The notes below the pieces were generated by a model. That model had not been told where the DNA came from. It saw only the letters and a program-made list of their open reading frames with translations, and searched no databases. A stretch of 16,974 nucleotides of DNA. Origin: Ramlibacter sp. (lineage in GTDB: Bacteria; Pseudomonadota; Gammaproteobacteria; Burkholderiales; Burkholderiaceae_C). The stretch is taken from assembly GCA_035492155.1 (NCBI GenBank), contig DATJJL010000385.1, positions 1 to 16,974 of the forward strand, given 5' to 3'. Of the stretch, positions 2,638-9,261 are shown piece by piece. The number at the start of each line of letters is the position of its first letter. Positions within the stretch are counted from its first letter, which is position 1. The position numbers and the translations under genes were made by a program.

Positions 2638-3147
2638 TCAGCGCATCACCGGCTCGTCGGGCAGCTCGTTCGGGTTGGCTTCGCCCGGCGCGAGCGGAAA
2701 GTGAAGCTCCAGCAGCGAGGTGACCGCGTCGATGGCCTGCGTGAGGCCTTCCTCGTAGCGGCCTGCGCGGAATGCGCCTTGCATCGTCCCGACGATTCGT
2801 TGCCATTCGCCCGCGGGCACACATGACGTGAGGCCGCGGTCCGCGACGATCTCGATCGCGCGTTCGGCCACGAGCAAGTAGATCAACACGCCGTTGTTGT
2901 GCTGCGTGTCCCACACGCGCAGCTTGCCGAAGAGGGCGACTGCGCGCTCGCGCGGTCCGGCATCGCGCATCACATAGCTCGTGGGCAAGCCTGCTTCGAC
3001 GCACACGCGAAGCTCGCCGCTGTGATGTTGCTCGCTCGATGCGACGCGCTGCGTGAGCCGCTCGACCACCGCACGCGGGATGACGCGGCGCGAATCGTCG
3101 TGCCAGCGATGTCGCAGAAGGCGTGCGATGCGCTTGTGCCAGGCCAT
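2638..3147 (-). CDS. TPM domain-containing protein (cytoplasmic; third gene of the LemA/TPM module)
   Basis: ORF 2638..3507 trimmed to the ATG at 3145-3147 (MAWHKRIARLL...). The start overlaps the upstream stop by 1 nt (TGATG). The core GELRVCVE...WDTQHNNGVLIYLLVAERAIEIVADRG matches the TPM/DUF477-type fold. There is no signal peptide. Confidence 0.8.
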   Translation of the reverse strand: MAWHKRIARLLRHRWHDDSRRVIPRAVVERLTQRVASSEQHHSGELRVCVEAGLPTSYVMRDAGPRERAVALFGKLRVWDTQHNNGVLIYLLVAERAIEIVADRGLTSCVPAGEWQRIVGTMQGAFRAGRYEEGLTQAIDAVTSLLELHFPLAPGEANPNELPDEPVMR

Positions 3148-4064
3148 CACCAGTTCCCCGAGGCGCCGCCGCCTCCGAAATCGCCGCCGCCACCCGATCC
3201 GCCCCAGCCGCCTGCGCCACCACCGAAGCCTCCGCCGAACCCACCCCCACGGCCGAATCCGCCCCCGCCGATCCACGGGCCGCCTACCGACGGTGCGATG
3301 CGCCCGCCGAAGCCGCTGACCAGCGTGAAGAACAGCGCGACGAGACCCGCAAGACCTGCAACCAGCATGCTCGAAGTGATCAGCAGCGCGAGCCCGCCGA
3401 CGGCGCCACCGGTAACGATGGAGCCCAGCGGCCGACCGAAGATCGCGCGCAGCACGCGTCCGGCGACGAACACGCCGACAAAAAGGAAGATCGCGAGGTC
3501 GCCCCAATCGAACCCGTGGCCCGTCGTGCGCTGCGGCTTGTGAGTCTGCGCAGGTGCCGGAAGCGGTTCGCCATTGATCCGCGCGATCAGCTGGTCGACG
3601 CCGTCACGCAAGCCGCCCGCGAAATCCCCTTGCTTGAATTTCGGGATCATCACGTCGTCGATGATGTTCTTGGCCGCGAGATCCGGAATCGCGCCTTCCA
3701 GCGCCTTCGCGACTTCGATGCGCACCTTGTGATCGTCCTTCGCCACGACGATCAGCACGCCATCGCCCACACCTTTGCGCCCTATCTTCCACGCGTTGCC
3801 CACGCGATTGGCAAAGCTTGCGTCGTCTTCCGGATGCGTCGTGGCGACCATGAGGATTGCCATCTGCGAGCCCTTCGATTGCTCGAAGGCCATGAGCTTG
3901 TCCTCCAGGCCCTTGATCTGGATCGCATCAAGCGTGCCCGTCTGGTCGATGACGTGCGCCGTGAGCGGCGGGATGGGCTGGAGATTTTGCGCTTGCGCCA
4001 GCGCGCACAAACACAGAACGCAGAGTGCGCAGAGTAAACGCAGAGTGCGCAGAGATTTATTCAT
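3147..4064 (-). CDS. TPM domain-containing protein, YgcG-like (signal peptide, TPM domain, TM segments, Gly-rich tail)
   Basis: 305-aa ORF. The signal peptide is MNKSLRTLRLLCALCVLCLCALAQA/Q. The TPM core is VIDQTGTL...ILMVATT...GVLIVVAKDDHKVRIEV. Hydrophobic segments follow, then a C-terminal tail GGGGFGRGGGFGGGFGGG...GGGGASGNW typical of this family. Confidence 0.85.
   Translation of the reverse strand: MNKSLRTLRLLCALCVLCLCALAQAQNLQPIPPLTAHVIDQTGTLDAIQIKGLEDKLMAFEQSKGSQMAILMVATTHPEDDASFANRVGNAWKIGRKGVGDGVLIVVAKDDHKVRIEVAKALEGAIPDLAAKNIIDDVMIPKFKQGDFAGGLRDGVDQLIARINGEPLPAPAQTHKPQRTTGHGFDWGDLAIFLFVGVFVAGRVLRAIFGRPLGSIVTGGAVGGLALLITSSMLVAGLAGLVALFFTLVSGFGGRIAPSVGGPWIGGGGFGRGGGFGGGFGGGAGGWGGSGGGGDFGGGGASGNW
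3150..3284 (-). repeat. Low-complexity Gly-rich (GGGF-type) coding repeat at the 3' end of the YgcG-like gene
   Basis: The + strand shows reiterated ccgcc/ccacc/gaagcc units. These translate on the minus strand to a tail of about 45 aa made of Gly/Phe/Trp. The same units produce a spurious Pro-rich ORF on the + strand. Confidence 0.7.
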
Positions 4065-4116
4065 GAAATTCTTCTGTGTCCTCTGCGAAACCTCTGCGCC
4101 CTCTGCGTTCGGCTGT
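4011..4116. mobile_element. Cargo-less (MITE/REP-like) inverted-repeat element of the ACAGCCGAAC + CGCAGAG-heptamer family
   Basis: The left arm (4011-4054) is ACACAGAAC plus 4 CGCAGAG copies at 4019, 4028, 4039 and 4048. The right arm (4081-4116) has 3 CTCTGCG copies at 4081, 4092 and 4101, followed by TTCGGCTGT. The reverse complement of 4092-4108 matches 4038-4054 and 4018-4034 at 16/17. The reverse complement of 4092-4116 matches the cassette arm 8841-8865 at 23/25. Confidence 0.5.
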
Positions 4117-4124
4117 CCGCGTGT

Positions 4125-4724
4125 TTACTTCTTCGCCCCGAAGTCCACCGTCGGCGGCTTAGAGATCTGCGCTTCGTTCTCCACCGTGAAGTTCGCCTTC
4201 GGCTGGTAGTGGAACATCATCGCGGTGAGGTTCGTCGGGAAGCTGCGTGCGAGCACGTTGTACTGCTGCACCGTCTGGATATACCGGTTGCGCGCGACCG
4301 TGATGCGGTTTTCCGTGCCTTCGAGCTGCACGCGCAAATCGCGGAAAGACTGGTTGGCCTTCAAGTCGGGGTAACGCTCCGATACTGCGAGCAGCCGACT
4401 GAGCGCGCCGGTGAGCTGCGATTGCGCCTGCTGGAACTGCTGCATCTTCTGCGGGTCGTTCAGCATGTCGGGCGTGACCTGGATCGACGTCGCTTTCGCG
4501 CGCGCCTCGACAACTTTCGTGAGTGTGTCCTGCTCGAAATTCGCCTCGCCCTTCACTGTCGCGACGAGGTTGGGGACGAGGTCGGCGCGCCGCTGGTACT
4601 GGTTGAGCACCTCGCTCCACGCGGCCTTGGTCTGCTCATCGAGCCGCTGGAAATCGTTGTAGCCGCAGCCGCCCAGCACAAGAGTCGTGAGGACTGCTGC
4701 GAGGATCAGGAGCCAGCGCTTCAT
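4125..4724 (-). CDS. lemA: LemA family protein (lipoprotein)
   Basis: 199-aa ORF. The lipobox is LVLGG/C. The canonical LemA core is present (AWSEVLNQYQRRADLVPNLV...RYPDLKANQSFRDLRVQLEGTENRITVARNRYIQTVQQYN). Confidence 0.9.
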   Translation of the reverse strand: MKRWLLILAAVLTTLVLGGCGYNDFQRLDEQTKAAWSEVLNQYQRRADLVPNLVATVKGEANFEQDTLTKVVEARAKATSIQVTPDMLNDPQKMQQFQQAQSQLTGALSRLLAVSERYPDLKANQSFRDLRVQLEGTENRITVARNRYIQTVQQYNVLARSFPTNLTAMMFHYQPKANFTVENEAQISKPPTVDFGAKK

Positions 4725-6810: not shown

Positions 6811-8823
6811 TCAGGGCGAAACGGCTGCCGACGCGGCGCCGACGCTCGCCGCCGCAGACGTCGTGCCATTTGTCGGCGGCCAGGCGAATTGAGCGGCGGG
6901 CCGCTGCTTGCCGATAGGCGCCGTCGCCTGCGCCTTGCGCACGGCGGCGATGTCTTCTTCGCTCGGGTACAGGCCCGACAGGTAGTAGTCGAACGCACGG
7001 CGTGCGATGGGCGCGGCCGCCTGAGCGCCGAAGCCCGCGTTCTCGACGACCATCGCCACGGCGATCTTCGGGTCGTCCGCCGGGGCGTACGCAATATAGA
7101 GCGCGTGGTCGCGATGGCGCTCCTCCGTCTGCGAGGCGTTGTACTTGGCGCCTTGTGCGATGCCCACCACCTGCGCCGTTCCTGTCTTGCCGCCGCTCGT
7201 GTAGGGCGCGCCGCGGAATGCCGCGGCAGCAGTGCCCTCGATGTTCACGCCCACCATCGCGTTGCGCACGATCGCGATGTTCTCCGGTTTCGCGACGCGC
7301 TCGCCCACCGTTTGCTGCGTGGGCGACAGCACCGCCTCCTTGCTGACGACGTCGACCACCTTTTCGACGAGGTGCGGCTTCATCTTGATGCCGTTGTTGG
7401 CCAGCGTCGCGACAGCCTGCGCCATCTGCAGGATCGTGAAGCTGTTGTAGCCCTGTCCGATGCCCAGCGAGATCGTCTCGCCTGCATACCATTTCTGCTG
7501 CTCGGCCTTGCGGTAGGCCGCGCGCTTCCACGCTGTGGAGGGCAGCAGGCCCTTCGATTCGCCCTGGATGTCGATCCCCGTCAAATCGCCGAAGCCGAAC
7601 TTGTGGGTGTGCTCGTAGATCGCGTCCACGCCCAGGTCGTTGGCGACCATGTAGTAGTACGTGTCGCATGACAGCACGATCGAGCGGTACATGTCGACCG
7701 CGCCGTGGCCCTCGGGTTTGTCGTCGCGGAACTTGTGCCCGCCGAACCAGAAGAAGCCCGGGTCGTGGTAGACCTGCTCGGGGCGGCGCTTGCCTTCCTC
7801 CAGCGCTGCGATCGCCATATACGGCTTGTAGGTGGAACCCGGTGGGTATGTGCCGCGCAGCGCGCGATTGAGCAGCGGCTTGTCGATCGACTCGTTCAAG
7901 GCCGTCCAGTTTTCCGTGTCGATGCCGTCGACGAACAGGTTCGGGTCGAACGTCGGCTTGCTGACGAAGGCGAGCACTTCGCCGGTCTTCGGATCGATCG
8001 CGACGAAGGCGCCGCGGCGGTCGCCGTACAGATCCTCGACGAGACGCTGCAGCTTGATGTCCACCGACAGCTGCACGGTGTTGCCCGGTGTCGGCGGGTG
8101 GCTGCGCAGCTTGCGGATTGCGCGGCCGGCTGCGGAGGTTTCCACCGCTTCGACGCCGGTCACGCCATGAAGCTGCTCTTCGTAGCTTTGCTCGATGCCC
8201 AGCTTGCCGATGTATTCGGTGCCGCGATAGTTGGCCTGCCGCGCTTCCGGCCAGTCCTCCATCGCTTCCTTTTCGGACTGGTTCACGCGGCCGATGTAGC
8301 CGATCAGGTGACTCGCCAATTCGCCCCATGGGTAATTGCGGAACAGGCGCGCCTTGATCTCCACGCCCGGAAAGCGCCACGCGTTGGCCGCGAACTTCGC
8401 GACTTCCTCGTCGGTGAGCTTGGTGCGGATCGGCAGCGATTCGATCGACTTGTTTTCTTCGAGCAGCTTCTTGAAGCGCTTCTTGTCGCGCGGCTGCACT
8501 TCGATCACCTGCCCGATGTCGTCGATGACTTTGTCGAGCGGCGCCGTCACGCGCTGCGGCTGTATCTCGAGCGTGTAGGCCGAGTAATTGGTGGCAAGCA
8601 CGATGCCGTTGCGATCGAGGATCAGCCCGCGGTTCGGCACGATCGGCACGATCGCCGTGCGGTTCGCCTCGGCCTGCTCGGCAAGATCGGAGTGGCGCCA
8701 GATCTGCAGATAGGAAAGCCGAAGGCCAAGCAGCAGGAAGCACACGACCACGACAAGGCTCGCGGCGAACACGCGCAGCCGGAACTTCGACAGGTCCGCT
8801 TCGACGTTTCTGAGCTCGGTCAT
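6811..8823 (-). CDS. mrdA: penicillin-binding protein 2 (elongasome transpeptidase)
   Basis: ORF 6811..8874 trimmed to the ATG at 8821-8823 (MTELRNVEADLSKFRLRV...), with GGAG 10-13 nt upstream. Catalytic motifs are STYK (PPGSTYKP), SCD (VLSCDTYYY) and KTGTA. The 17 extra N-terminal codons in the track (MRVLCALCVRLFVERST) are a translation of the repeat arm. The last ~50 aa form an Ala/Ser/Pro-rich tail. Confidence 0.9.
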   Translation of the reverse strand: MTELRNVEADLSKFRLRVFAASLVVVVCFLLLGLRLSYLQIWRHSDLAEQAEANRTAIVPIVPNRGLILDRNGIVLATNYSAYTLEIQPQRVTAPLDKVIDDIGQVIEVQPRDKKRFKKLLEENKSIESLPIRTKLTDEEVAKFAANAWRFPGVEIKARLFRNYPWGELASHLIGYIGRVNQSEKEAMEDWPEARQANYRGTEYIGKLGIEQSYEEQLHGVTGVEAVETSAAGRAIRKLRSHPPTPGNTVQLSVDIKLQRLVEDLYGDRRGAFVAIDPKTGEVLAFVSKPTFDPNLFVDGIDTENWTALNESIDKPLLNRALRGTYPPGSTYKPYMAIAALEEGKRRPEQVYHDPGFFWFGGHKFRDDKPEGHGAVDMYRSIVLSCDTYYYMVANDLGVDAIYEHTHKFGFGDLTGIDIQGESKGLLPSTAWKRAAYRKAEQQKWYAGETISLGIGQGYNSFTILQMAQAVATLANNGIKMKPHLVEKVVDVVSKEAVLSPTQQTVGERVAKPENIAIVRNAMVGVNIEGTAAAAFRGAPYTSGGKTGTAQVVGIAQGAKYNASQTEERHRDHALYIAYAPADDPKIAVAMVVENAGFGAQAAAPIARRAFDYYLSGLYPSEEDIAAVRKAQATAPIGKQRPAAQFAWPPTNGTTSAAASVGAASAAVSP

Positions 8824-8874
8824 GGTCGATCGCTCCACGAACAGCCGAACGCAAAGGGCGCAAAGGACTCGCAA

Positions 8875-8898
8875 AAAGCGCGAAATAAAGTGCGCTTC
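8875..8898 (-). terminator. Weak terminator-like hairpin just after the GxxExxY stop (inside the cassette, upstream of mrdA)
   Basis: The minus strand reads GAAGCGC-ACTTTATTTC-GCGCTTTTTG. That gives a 6-7 bp stem, a 10-nt loop and a T5 run. The stem is short, so function is uncertain. Confidence 0.25.
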
Positions 8899-9229
8899 AC
8901 AGATTGTTCACCAGACGTTGGATTCCCTTGGTGACCGGGAAAGCATGGAAGTTGATCAGCAGGCCCAACTTGTGCCCAGAGACCGAACGCTCCACGATGA
9001 AATCCGCTCGATACAGCAGGCCGATGTCGTGGGACTTGTATCTCCCGTAGACGGGAACTTCCCTTCGATAGTTCAGGTCCGCGTGCGAAAGTTCAATTTC
9101 GAGAGCCGCCGCATACGCACTTTCCAGCAGGCCGACGCCGAGCACGCGTTGCACTTCGACCGCAGCACCAATGATTTCACGGCTGCAGTCGAGGTCCAGG
9201 ATGTCTTCGCTTTGCGCCCTTTGCGTCAT
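8897..9229 (-). CDS. GxxExxY family protein (PD-(D/E)XK-like fold), internally shortened, possibly degenerate
   Basis: 110-aa ORF from the ATG at 9227-9229. It has the hallmark GVGLLESAYAAAL (GxxExxY) and the C-terminal KLGLLINF...GIQRLVNNL. The first 8-9 codons (MTQRAQSE) are encoded by the heptamer repeat arm. Compared with typical ~125-aa members, a segment of about 20-25 aa is missing between ...RADFIVERSV and SGHKLGLLINF. That segment normally holds the (I/V)ExK strand and the following helix. Confidence 0.7.
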   Translation of the reverse strand: MTQRAQSEDILDLDCSREIIGAAVEVQRVLGVGLLESAYAAALEIELSHADLNYRREVPVYGRYKSHDIGLLYRADFIVERSVSGHKLGLLINFHAFPVTKGIQRLVNNL

Positions 9230-9261
9230 CTTTGCGCCTTTTGCGTTCGGCTGTTCGGTGT

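What the first reader, a model, noticed from the sequence alone, without database searches (positions are those of the whole stretch)
4011..4116. Cargo-less sibling element straddles the TPM/YgcG gene start and encodes most of its signal peptide
Seen directly: the lemA-TPM junction contains the same arm architecture as the GxxExxY cassette. The reverse complement of 4092-4116 (ACAGCCGAACGCAGAGGGCGCAGAG) matches 8841-8865 at 23/25. Here only about 26 nt separate the two arms. The short core ATTTATTC resembles the TTTATTTC found just after the GxxExxY stop in the full cassette. This hints that the element is a deletion derivative, though that evidence is weak.

The TPM gene ATG (4062-4064) lies in the core. 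Codons 4-17 (SLRTLRLLCALCVL) are read straight through the 4-heptamer arm, so the n- and h-regions of the signal peptide are repeat-derived. No alternative start leaves a usable signal peptide. The same LCALCV peptide appears when the arm upstream of mrdA is translated.

On the mRNA, the intergenic arm can pair 16/17 with codons 4-9 or 11-16. This places the SD and AUG in the loop. The result could be a translational or processing control point between lemA and the TPM gene.
Basis: partly seen in the sequence, partly recalled or inferred. Interest (0 to 1): 0.65.

Follow-up and report, generated by a model that had tools for sequence, protein, structure and literature searches.

The report
Hairpin repeat donating a signal peptide
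A 95-base hairpin repeat, an empty relative of a small nuclease-gene cassette that sits between genes in operons, lies right after the lemA stop codon and now supplies the start codon and most of the export signal of the next gene, and relatives have kept it foldable by matched changes in both arms.

Summary
Window 4016-4110 is a 95-nt interrupted hairpin. Each arm has four CGCAGAG-type heptamers spaced 9-11-9. On the mRNA strand it folds at -66.9 kcal/mol (z = -8).

It is a cargo-less member of the family whose arms flank the GxxExxY (PD-(D/E)XK) gene at 8838-9257. Its 5' arm aligns with the 5' end of such cassettes from the upstream stop codon onward. It translates to GQPNAEGAEVSQRTQK, the N-terminal tail of all 120 closest GxxExxY proteins.

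The TPM/YgcG start codon lies in the loop, and codons 4-17 are the 3' arm. The 11-nt step between unit pairs shifts the frame, so the same heptamer encodes Leu-Arg (n-region) and then Leu-Cys (h-region).

The element occurs at this junction in 23 of the 34 closest TPM homologues and in none of the next 86. Seven orthologous hairpins differ in unit sequence (GCAGAG, GCAAAG, GCAAAA, GCAGAA), always in both arms.

A role in translation or RNA processing is plausible, because the SD is buried and the AUG exposed, but it is untested. I found no paper describing this element family. I rate it a new variant of REP/MITE-like elements.

The parts
4125..4127 (-). lemA stop codon (TAA), which is the left boundary of the element
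   Evidence: ORF 4125-4724 is LemA (PF04011). In alignment A4 this stop aligns with the upstream-gene TGA of the ATGA overlap at the left end of GxxExxY cassettes.
4111..4124 (-). Element leader ACACGCGGACAGCC, matching the cassette 5' leader
   Evidence: It aligns with TGA-ACAC-CGAACAGCC of the window's own cassette and with the trpE cassettes.
4071..4110 (-). 5' arm of the hairpin, non-coding, with four heptamer units. It reads GAAC GCAGAGG GCGCAGAGG TTTC GCAGAGG ACACAGAAG, and the SD-like purine run lies in unit 4.
   Evidence: In the TPM frame it translates to GQPNAEGAEVSQRTQK, the GxxExxY N-terminal tail.
4056..4070 (-). Apical loop AAUUUCAUGAAUAAA, which contains the TPM start codon (4064-4062)
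   Evidence: Fold. Opening the AUG costs 0.1 kcal/mol. An ATGA-containing loop is conserved in all orthologous hairpins and in a Xenophilus copy at another locus.
4016..4055 (-). 3' arm of the hairpin, equal to TPM codons 4-17 (SLRTLRLLCALCVL)
   Evidence: It pairs with 4071-4110. Covariation is shown.
3990..4064 (-). Predicted Sec signal peptide of TPM/YgcG (residues 1-25, with AQA|QN cleavage inferred)
   Evidence: Read. Cleavage-region conservation with repeat-free orthologues (AFAQ|N/D LQP) is. No SignalP was available.
3147..4064 (-). TPM/YgcG-like gene (305 aa)
   Evidence: PF04536 with E = 5.7e-37.
9211..9257 (-). Left (5') arm of the sibling GxxExxY cassette. The ATG at 9229-9227 lies between units 2 and 3.
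   Evidence: (I1).
8897..9229 (-). GxxExxY / PDDEXK_3 ORF, a decayed copy with an internal deletion
   Evidence: PF13366 and TIGR04256 match only profile positions 2-70 of 116. The orthologous L001 copy is full length.
8838..8884 (-). Right (3') arm of the sibling cassette, just upstream of the true mrdA start (ATG 8823-8821)
   Evidence: (I1, I2).

Best explanation
Window 4016-4124 is a cargo-less derivative of a GxxExxY-type cassette. That cassette is a small element made of two inverted arms of tandem CGCARAG heptamers around a PD-(D/E)XK gene. It sits directly after the stop codon of an upstream gene, in the same orientation as the operon.

The copy at the lemA stop codon entered once, in the ancestor of a Ramlibacter-like clade, and was co-opted. 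Its loop provides the TPM start codon. Unit 4 of the 5' arm provides the SD-like purines. The 3' arm provides codons 4-17. Because the unit pairs are 11 nt apart, the heptamer is read as Leu-Arg twice (n-region) and then as Leu-Cys twice (h-region). Only the c-region and cleavage site remain from the ancestral signal peptide.

On the lemA-TPM mRNA the arms form a stem of about 40 pairs, interrupted at the 2-nt spacers. The AUG is exposed in the loop, while the SD and the first 17 codons are paired.

The inferred consequence is that translation of TPM is uncoupled from lemA and throttled. The stem may also be a processing or stability site, for example for RNase III or as a 3' exonuclease barrier for lemA.

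Shown here: family membership, single origin, coding use, and conserved pairing with matched changes in both arms. Inferred: deletion origin, signal-peptide function, and any regulatory effect.
For: - **Anatomy and stability:** (MFE -66.9 kcal/mol, z = -7.99).
- **Family membership:** the 5' side aligns with cassette 5' ends from the stop codon onward. The arm translation GQPNAEGAEVSQRTQK equals the N-terminal tail of all 120 nearest GxxExxY proteins. In the AlphaFold2 model that tail is disordered, with pLDDT below 50 for residues 1-26.
- **Other family copies:** cargo-less hairpins occur in Ottowia, Variovorax, Xenophilus and Ramlibacter monticola. Cargo-bearing copies sit at trpE-trpG in four genomes.
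- **Single ancestral insertion:** all seven intact orthologous junctions share the same derived right end, GT(T/C)CTG(G/T), and the same reading frame.
- **Lineage-specific distribution:** 23 of the best 34 TPM homologues carry the arm-coded motif, and 0 of the next 86 do.
- **Matched changes in both arms:** in the orthologous alignment 84.9% of cells pair, against 37-55% when the partner is slid. Fourteen pairs change on both sides, and 0 of 500 shuffles reach the covariation score. The family alignment gives 91.4% paired.
- **Constraint on the non-coding arm:** its unit positions are 24-30 of 32 identical to the window, while lemA four-fold sites are 0.59-0.72 identical and arm spacers 2-6 of 8.
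- **Structured initiation region in every orthologue:** opening the AUG costs 0-3 kcal/mol, the SD region 9-16, and positions -18 to +12 cost 12-22.
Against: - No expression, RNA-end or protein data exist. The only metatranscriptome contigs do not cover the hairpin.
- G.U versus A.C mismatches, which would show selection on the transcribed strand, stand at about 24:12 once copies are oriented by their flanking genes. That is not decisive.
- Complementarity could be kept by DNA-level processes instead of selection on RNA. Candidates are template switching in quasi-palindromes or conversion between arms.
- Two orthologues have lost the 5' arm and still have a TPM gene (L187 and L015). The hairpin is therefore dispensable.
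- A deletion origin of this particular copy is not shown. Its loop has no convincing similarity to the cargo ends.
- The signal peptide was judged by rules, not by SignalP.
Confidence: 0.65

Rival explanations
1. The element is a fixed selfish remnant with no RNA function. Only its coding use matters: the 3' arm is kept because it encodes the signal peptide. The 5' arm tracks it through DNA-level homogenisation, either template-switch correction of a quasi-palindrome or conversion between the arms.
For: - The hairpin has been lost without loss of the gene in L187 and L015.
- The G.U versus A.C test is inconclusive.
- Cassette arms about 400 nt apart also stay more alike within an element (36-40 of 42) than between orthologues (30-38 of 42). 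This fits conversion, or shared recognition of both ends by one protein, as well as it fits pairing.
Against: - The 2-nt spacers stay mismatched in all orthologues while the heptamers stay paired. Blind homogenisation should erase those mismatches.
- Unit positions of the non-coding arm are more conserved than four-fold sites.
Confidence: 0.25
2. The heptamer arrays work in double-stranded DNA as a binding array, either for the GxxExxY nuclease or for a nucleoid protein. Alternatively they are the ends recognised for mobilisation. The hairpin potential would then be a by-product of inverted ends.
For: - The 9-11-9 spacing gives a 20-nt period, about two helical turns.
- The same unit type flanks GxxExxY genes in four phyla.
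- ATGA or TGA is found at both cassette ends, against a single ATGA at the empty mreD/mrdA site.
Against: - Two unit variants coexist stably in one genome: GCAGAG at the junction and GCAAAG in the cassette, in both the window and L001. A single binding protein would not predict that.
- No binding or cleavage data exist.
- The fold search gives only generic PD-(D/E)XK relatives.
Confidence: 0.1
3. The hairpin is an intrinsic terminator or attenuator that ends most lemA transcripts before TPM.
For: It is a very stable stem that begins 8 nt after the lemA stop, followed by a U-rich stretch, UCUGUGUUUG.
Against: - There is no proper U-run. The terminator scan finds only a 5-pair sub-stem, and its count is no higher than in shuffles.
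- The U-richness follows from hydrophobic codons.
- The TPM start lies inside the stem-loop, so termination there would leave TPM without its own 5' end.
- Gene order and spacing indicate one operon in all relatives.
Confidence: 0.05

Closest known systems
REP/BIME elements and REPIN-RAYT systems (Enterobacteria, Pseudomonas; REPINs: PMC3116915)
   Same: Both are dispersed hairpin-forming repeats that sit after stop codons inside operons. Both have a dedicated gene flanked by inverted copies of the repeat. Known effects of REPs on upstream mRNA stability and on translation when close to a stop codon are cited from my own knowledge.
   Different: The associated gene here is a PD-(D/E)XK GxxExxY protein, not a Y1/HUH RAYT transposase. 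The arms are arrays of four heptamers, not single 20-40 nt palindromes with a GTAG head. The 5' arm is translated as the tail of the cargo protein. This copy overlaps a host coding sequence.
MITEs of bacteria (Correia/NEMIS, ERIC, RUP)
   Same: Both have terminal inverted repeats, cargo-less relatives of a gene-bearing element, and transcription as part of host mRNAs with hairpin formation. Correia elements are RNase III substrates (my own knowledge).
   Different: No transposase is encoded, and no target-site duplication is evident at the lemA-TPM copy. The partner element sits precisely at stop/start junctions and is translationally coupled to the host gene.
Rickettsia palindromic elements (RPE)
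   Same: Both are palindromic repeats that end up translated in frame as part of host proteins (my own knowledge).
   Different: RPEs insert inside ORFs and add internal peptide segments. Here the element supplies the start codon and the n- and h-regions of a signal peptide. There is no sequence relationship.
Hairpin-flanked small ORFs in 23S rRNA intervening sequences (four-helix-bundle 'S23p' proteins)
   Same: In both, a small ORF of unknown function is enclosed by long complementary arms inside a host transcript. Both form large paralogous families (recalled from memory and not tested here).
   Different: The protein fold is different, and the host context is rRNA rather than operon junctions. 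No heptamer arrays are known to me in that case.

Membership tests
   (23/25 to the cassette arm). Covariance model hit at 84.8 bits, E = 6.6e-16.
   Alignment A4. The peptide GQPNAEGAEVSQRTQK matches 120 of 120 homologue N-termini.
   Only a 15-nt loop lies between the arms, so this is the cargo-less form.
REP / REPIN-RAYT | Short imperfect palindromic units with a conserved GTAG-type head, and a RAYT (Y1 transposase) gene flanked by them | tested here: not met
   The arms are heptamer arrays without that head. No Y1 transposase was found among the window's proteins. The whole genome is not available.
MITE | Terminal inverted repeats | tested here: met
   (I4, and I1 for the cassette).
MITE | Target-site duplication, and an autonomous partner that encodes a transposase | tested here: inconclusive
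   ATGA or TGA is present at both cassette ends, against one ATGA at the empty mreD/mrdA site. None is evident at lemA-TPM. The partner encodes a nuclease-fold protein of unknown activity.
Rho-independent terminator | A G+C-rich stem immediately followed by a U-run | tested here: not met
   only a 5-pair sub-stem with the tail TCTGTGTTTG, and a count no higher than in shuffles.
Sec-type (type I) signal peptide | A positive n-region, a hydrophobic h-region of 7-15 residues, and small residues at -3 and -1 | tested here: met
   By inspection only: K3, R6 and R9; L10-A23; A-Q-A|Q. The cleavage region aligns with repeat-free orthologues. SignalP was not available.
Any Rfam family | A score at or above the gathering threshold | tested here: not met
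   There were 0 matches at gathering threshold. At E <= 10 only generic long-hairpin miRNA models appear, far below threshold.

The most novel reading that the evidence does not exclude
GxxExxY (PF13366) genes with their heptamer-array arms may be a cross-phylum class of operon-junction elements. They would insert at overlapping stop/start codons (ATGA), borrow translational coupling from the upstream host gene, and translate their own left end as a disordered tail. They would also shed the nuclease gene to leave ~95-nt hairpins, which hosts can retain for long periods and co-opt. In this window such a hairpin serves as a structured initiation region plus a ready-made signal peptide. This would be a REPIN/RAYT-like partnership built on a PD-(D/E)XK nuclease instead of a Y1 transposase, and I could not find it described in the searchable literature.
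Probability: 0.45. Interest if true: 0.75.

Novelty: new variant of a known kind. Interest (0 to 1): 0.6.

Why it matters
- **Protein evolution:** this is a clean, datable example of a repeat element giving a host gene its start codon and export signal. The mechanism is simple: one heptamer read in two frames yields a charged segment and then a hydrophobic one.
- **An uncharacterised gene family:** GxxExxY proteins are abundant across bacteria, and I found no study of their function. Here they are tied to a defined DNA/RNA architecture and a preferred site, the stop/start junction of operons. That turns "unknown function" into testable hypotheses: a nuclease acting on arm hairpins, a mobile or homing element, or RNA processing.
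- **Annotation:** arm-encoded peptides inflate or distort called ORFs. Examples are the 687-aa mrdA ORF against the true 670-aa protein, and the N-terminal tails on GxxExxY proteins.

Tried and rejected
- **Rfam:** nothing at gathering threshold. With permissive E-values only eukaryotic miRNA-precursor models match, which is what any long hairpin gives.
- **blastn against PLSDB plasmids:** no match for the element.
- **15-mer scan of GTDB genomes:** the pattern was too short.
- **phmmer with the 30-aa N-terminus:** 0 hits against 1.84 billion representatives, because the query is too short. I could not test whether other protein families reuse the arm as a signal peptide.
- **Sequencing runs:** DNA metagenomes and two metatranscriptomes hold the locus, but only as sparse contigs. 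No transcript ends or cleavage sites could be read.
- **G.U versus A.C strand test:** 30:10 as first aligned, but about 24:12 after orienting copies by their neighbouring genes. Inconclusive.
rejected, because it compares opposite strands of the two elements.
- **My own idea that the loop ATGA descends from the cassette's CTATGA stop:** the alignment is too weak (about 10 of 16 positions), so I leave it as speculation.
- **Terminator reading:** rejected.
- **Structure of the GxxExxY protein:** a confident PD-(D/E)XK core, but Foldseek finds only generic relatives (Cas4 SSO0001, lambda exonuclease; TM 0.4-0.5). PDB sequence search gives nothing and PADLOC gives only weak Cas4 hits. No specific activity can be inferred.
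- **Literature:** no paper found on GxxExxY cassettes or on the arm sequences.
Full report
**Setting.** The window comes from a Ramlibacter-like member of the Comamonadaceae, found in soil and rhizosphere metagenomes. The nearest named homologues of its TPM and GxxExxY proteins are Ramlibacter, and the runs that hold it are soil or rhizosphere.

On the minus strand the genes run mreB-mreC-mreD-[GxxExxY cassette]-mrdA. Further along come lemA (4724-4125), a TPM/YgcG-like gene (4064-3147) and a second TPM gene. The finding concerns the 60 nt between lemA and TPM and the first 50 nt of TPM.

**The observation.** It is correct in every sequence detail.
- The heptamer CTCTGCG or its complement occurs seven times in 4019-4107. 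Five of the remaining seven CTYTGCG matches in the whole window lie in the arms of the GxxExxY cassette.
- The repeat finder reports arms 4016-4053 and 4073-4110. It also reports 86% complementarity between 4084-4119 and the cassette arm 8838-8873. The quoted 23/25 match is exact.
- On the mRNA (minus) strand, 4000-4130 folds into one long stem at -66.9 kcal/mol. Shuffles average -39.5 +/- 3.4, giving z = -8.
- The ATG at 4064-4062 is in the apical loop, and codons 4-17 (SLRTLRLLCALCVL) are the 3' arm.

**Anatomy.** Each arm is [unit-2 nt-unit]-4 nt-[unit-2 nt-unit], with unit CGCAGAG, so unit starts are 9, 11 and 9 nt apart. This has a consequence that can be read directly from the sequence. 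Within a pair the units are in the same frame, and between pairs the frame shifts by two. In the TPM frame the first pair of the 3' arm reads (S)LR-(T)LR and the second pair reads LCA-LCV. One heptamer therefore yields the arginines of the n-region and then the Leu/Cys/Val of the h-region.

The remaining residues, LCLCALAQA|QN, lie outside the element. They align with the AFAQ|(N/D)LQP of orthologues that lack the element. The only later in-frame start (TTG, codon 19) would leave no usable signal peptide.

**What the element is.** It belongs to the same family as the arms around the GxxExxY gene, and the evidence goes beyond arm similarity.
1. In the TPM frame the 5' arm translates to GQPNAEGAEVSQRTQK. 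All 120 closest homologues of the neighbouring-type GxxExxY protein begin with M..QP(N/D)A(E/K)(G/D)A(E/K)V(S/T)QR(T/A)QKEQP. In real cassettes the left arm is therefore translated as an N-terminal tail, and the junction element carries that same sequence. AlphaFold2 models the tail (residues 1-26) as disordered and the PD-(D/E)XK core as confident.
2. Aligning left ends shows that homology starts at the upstream stop codon. The lemA-TPM copy reads TAA-ACAC-GCGGACAGCCGAAC. The window's own cassette reads TGA-ACAC-CGAACAGCCGAAC, and the trpE cassettes read TGA-ATAC-CGGACAGCCG(A/G)AC.
3. Complete cargo-less hairpins with the same four-unit arms occur at unrelated junctions in Ottowia pentelensis, Variovorax, Xenophilus aerolatus (between miaB and a histidine kinase) and Ramlibacter monticola (upstream of leuB).
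4. The Variovorax copy L087 still carries the cassette's own ATG and an MKNFEYGQPNAE start, but no nuclease domain. This is the best evidence that cargo-less copies arise by loss of the cargo.

**The cassette.**
- At trpE-trpG in Ramlibacter cellulosilyticus, an unnamed MAG, Ottowia pentelensis and Comamonadaceae ALPHA2B, the cassette starts with an ATG (GTG in the unnamed MAG) that overlaps the trpE stop (ATGA/GTGA). It reads through the left arm, ends CTATGA, and is followed by the right arm and then the trpG ATGA.
- At mreD-mrdA the empty site in L003 is a single overlapping CTATGACC. The cassette is also absent in L004, L185 and L186, where mreD and mrdA abut within 10 nt. The filled site in the window has TGA on the left and ATGA on the right. 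This suggests insertion into stop/start overlaps with duplication of (A)TGA, but one empty/filled pair is not proof.
- The two orthologous copies are decaying differently. The window's ORF has an internal deletion, with TIGR04256 matched over positions 2-70 of 116. L001 has a full ORF but has lost the right arm, so its stop now overlaps a GTG start of mrdA.
- The same architecture occurs with other unit spellings in other phyla. A Sphingomonas plasmid has CGCGAAG units between fabD and fabG. Bernardetia (Bacteroidota) has CACAGAG units. In Gemmatirosa (Gemmatimonadota), two three-unit CGCAGAGG hairpins flank the gene.

**History at the lemA-TPM junction.** I fetched the junction from eight further orthologous contigs.
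- Six of these contigs (five distinct sequences, L002 being nearly identical to L001) carry an intact ~95-nt hairpin with the ATG in the loop and the 3' arm in the same frame. With the window's own copy this gives the seven hairpins aligned below. All share a derived right end, GT(T/C)CTG(G/T), instead of the canonical GTTCGGCTG. This argues for one ancestral insertion.
- L187 has lost most of the 5' arm. In L015 the lemA TAG is followed directly by a GTG start, and only two units survive, still encoding LWALCVL.
- Among the 120 best TPM homologues, 23 of the first 34 carry the arm-encoded motif and none of the other 86 does.
- More distant orthologues have ordinary MKRLL-type signal peptides, or N-termini made from other REP-like hairpins (VIAGLTRNP, WMPDRVRHD) at the same junction. 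The junction is thus a recurrent landing site for hairpin repeats.

**Conservation of the hairpin.** The unit spelling differs by lineage, and both arms always change together. The spellings are GCAGAG (window, L001, L184), GCAAAG (L004) and GCAAAA/GCAGAA (L185, L186). In the coding arm these are Leu (CTC/CTT) to Phe (TTT/TTC) changes.
- On the seven-sequence alignment 84.9% of cells pair, against 37-55% when the partner is slid. Fourteen of 40 pairs change on both sides, and no shuffle reaches the covariation score.
- The 12-sequence family alignment gives 91.4% paired.
- The 2-nt spacers stay mismatched throughout.
- The non-coding 5' arm is more conserved at unit positions (24-30 of 32) than lemA four-fold sites (0.59-0.72). 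Its spacers drift (2-6 of 8).
- In the window and in L001 the junction copy (GCAGAG) and the cassette (GCAAAG) keep different spellings in one genome. Genome-wide homogenisation is therefore not the cause.
- Cassette arms about 400 nt apart also resemble each other (36-40 of 42) more than they resemble their orthologues (30-38 of 42).

**How it probably works.** The following is shown by sequence comparison: the element supplies the TPM start codon, the SD-like purines (unit 4) and the n- and h-regions.

The following is predicted by folding in every orthologue: the AUG is free (0-3 kcal/mol to open), the SD region is paired (9-16 kcal/mol), and the whole initiation region costs 12-22 kcal/mol to open.

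My preferred reading is that the hairpin replaces the ancestral close coupling and throttles TPM initiation. In the repeat-free junction L005 only 8 nt separate stop and start. The stem may also be an RNase III or exonuclease-barrier site, which would set the lemA:TPM ratio. This step is inference.

The main rival is that only the coding arm matters and that DNA-level correction keeps the arms alike. The persistent spacer mismatches and the conserved non-coding units argue against it, while the two natural losses of the 5' arm argue for dispensability. The strand test (G.U versus A.C) is inconclusive at about 24:12. A terminator role is unlikely.

**Comparison with known systems.** The element works like REP/BIME or REPIN elements and like bacterial MITEs. 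It resembles Rickettsia palindromic elements in being translated.

It is not a member of those families. It has no GTAG-headed REP unit, and no RAYT or transposase was found in the window. There is no Rfam match. Its partner gene is a PD-(D/E)XK protein of unknown activity. I found no paper on GxxExxY cassettes or on these arm sequences in the searchable library. That is absence from that library, not proof of novelty.

**Verdict.** The finding is real and mostly correctly interpreted. I rate it a new variant of a known kind, with interest 0.6. The broader reading is that GxxExxY cassettes are an undescribed operon-junction element class with co-optable hairpin derivatives. I give that reading about 0.45 probability, and it would deserve about 0.75 interest if true.

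Noticed in passing
window 8838-9257 (compare L001 4866-5306, L003 4540-4556): The GxxExxY cassette between mreD and mrdA is an insertion into an ATGA stop/start overlap. The site is empty in L003 (single ATGA overlap), and the cassette is also absent in L004, L185 and L186. The window's copy has an internal deletion in the ORF, while the orthologous L001 copy has a full ORF but has lost its right arm. The two copies are decaying independently.
   Followed up: yes
window 8821-8874: The mechanical mrdA ORF (687 aa, TTG at 8874) runs into the cassette arm (…LCALCVRLFVERST). The true start is most likely ATG 8823-8821, giving 670 aa as in L001. This is an annotation hazard caused by the arm.
   Followed up: partly
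L006-L016 (lemA-TPM junction of more distant orthologues): Other hairpin repeat families occupy the same junction and are called as TPM N-termini (MAVIADLIRNP…, WMPDRVRHD…). Examples are GTCATTGCGGGCTTGACCCGCAATCC and GGATGCCGG…CCGGCATGAC. The junction is a recurrent landing site for palindromic repeats.
   Followed up: partly
L191 2501-3030, L192 2501-3042, L193 2501-2953, L106 7519-8000: A GxxExxY cassette sits between trpE and trpG in several Comamonadaceae genera, and its start codon overlaps the trpE stop. In Ottowia pentelensis a phage-type integrase gene follows it where the other genomes have trpG.
   Followed up: partly
L189 1281-1361 and 1867-1948 (Gemmatirosa kalamazoonensis plasmid 1): Two complete three-unit CGCAGAGG hairpins flank a GxxExxY gene in a different phylum. 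They have the same GAAC terminus as the Comamonadaceae elements.
   Followed up: partly
L121 1798-1930 (Xenophilus aerolatus): A cargo-less hairpin between miaB and a histidine-kinase gene has the same GGAATTCATGAA loop. It opens a 28-codon ORF through the 3' arm whose TGA overlaps the kinase ATG (GCTGATG). This could be translational coupling through the element.
   Followed up: no
L116 6583-7061 (Bacillus solitudinis): The 15-mer used for the genome scan hits 18 times at a spacing of about 66 nt. It looks like a CRISPR-type array whose repeat happens to contain the pattern, and is probably unrelated.
   Followed up: no
window 3150-3290: The TPM protein ends in a long Gly-rich tail (GGGFGRGGGFGGGFGGGAGGWGGSGGGGDFGGGG), encoded by imperfect 60-nt direct repeats (repeat family D9).
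   Followed up: no
window 4052-4116, run X2: In one rhizosphere metagenome about eleven contigs match the 5' arm and then continue into unrelated sequence beyond 4110/4116. The arm therefore occurs in several other genomic contexts in that community.
   Followed up: no
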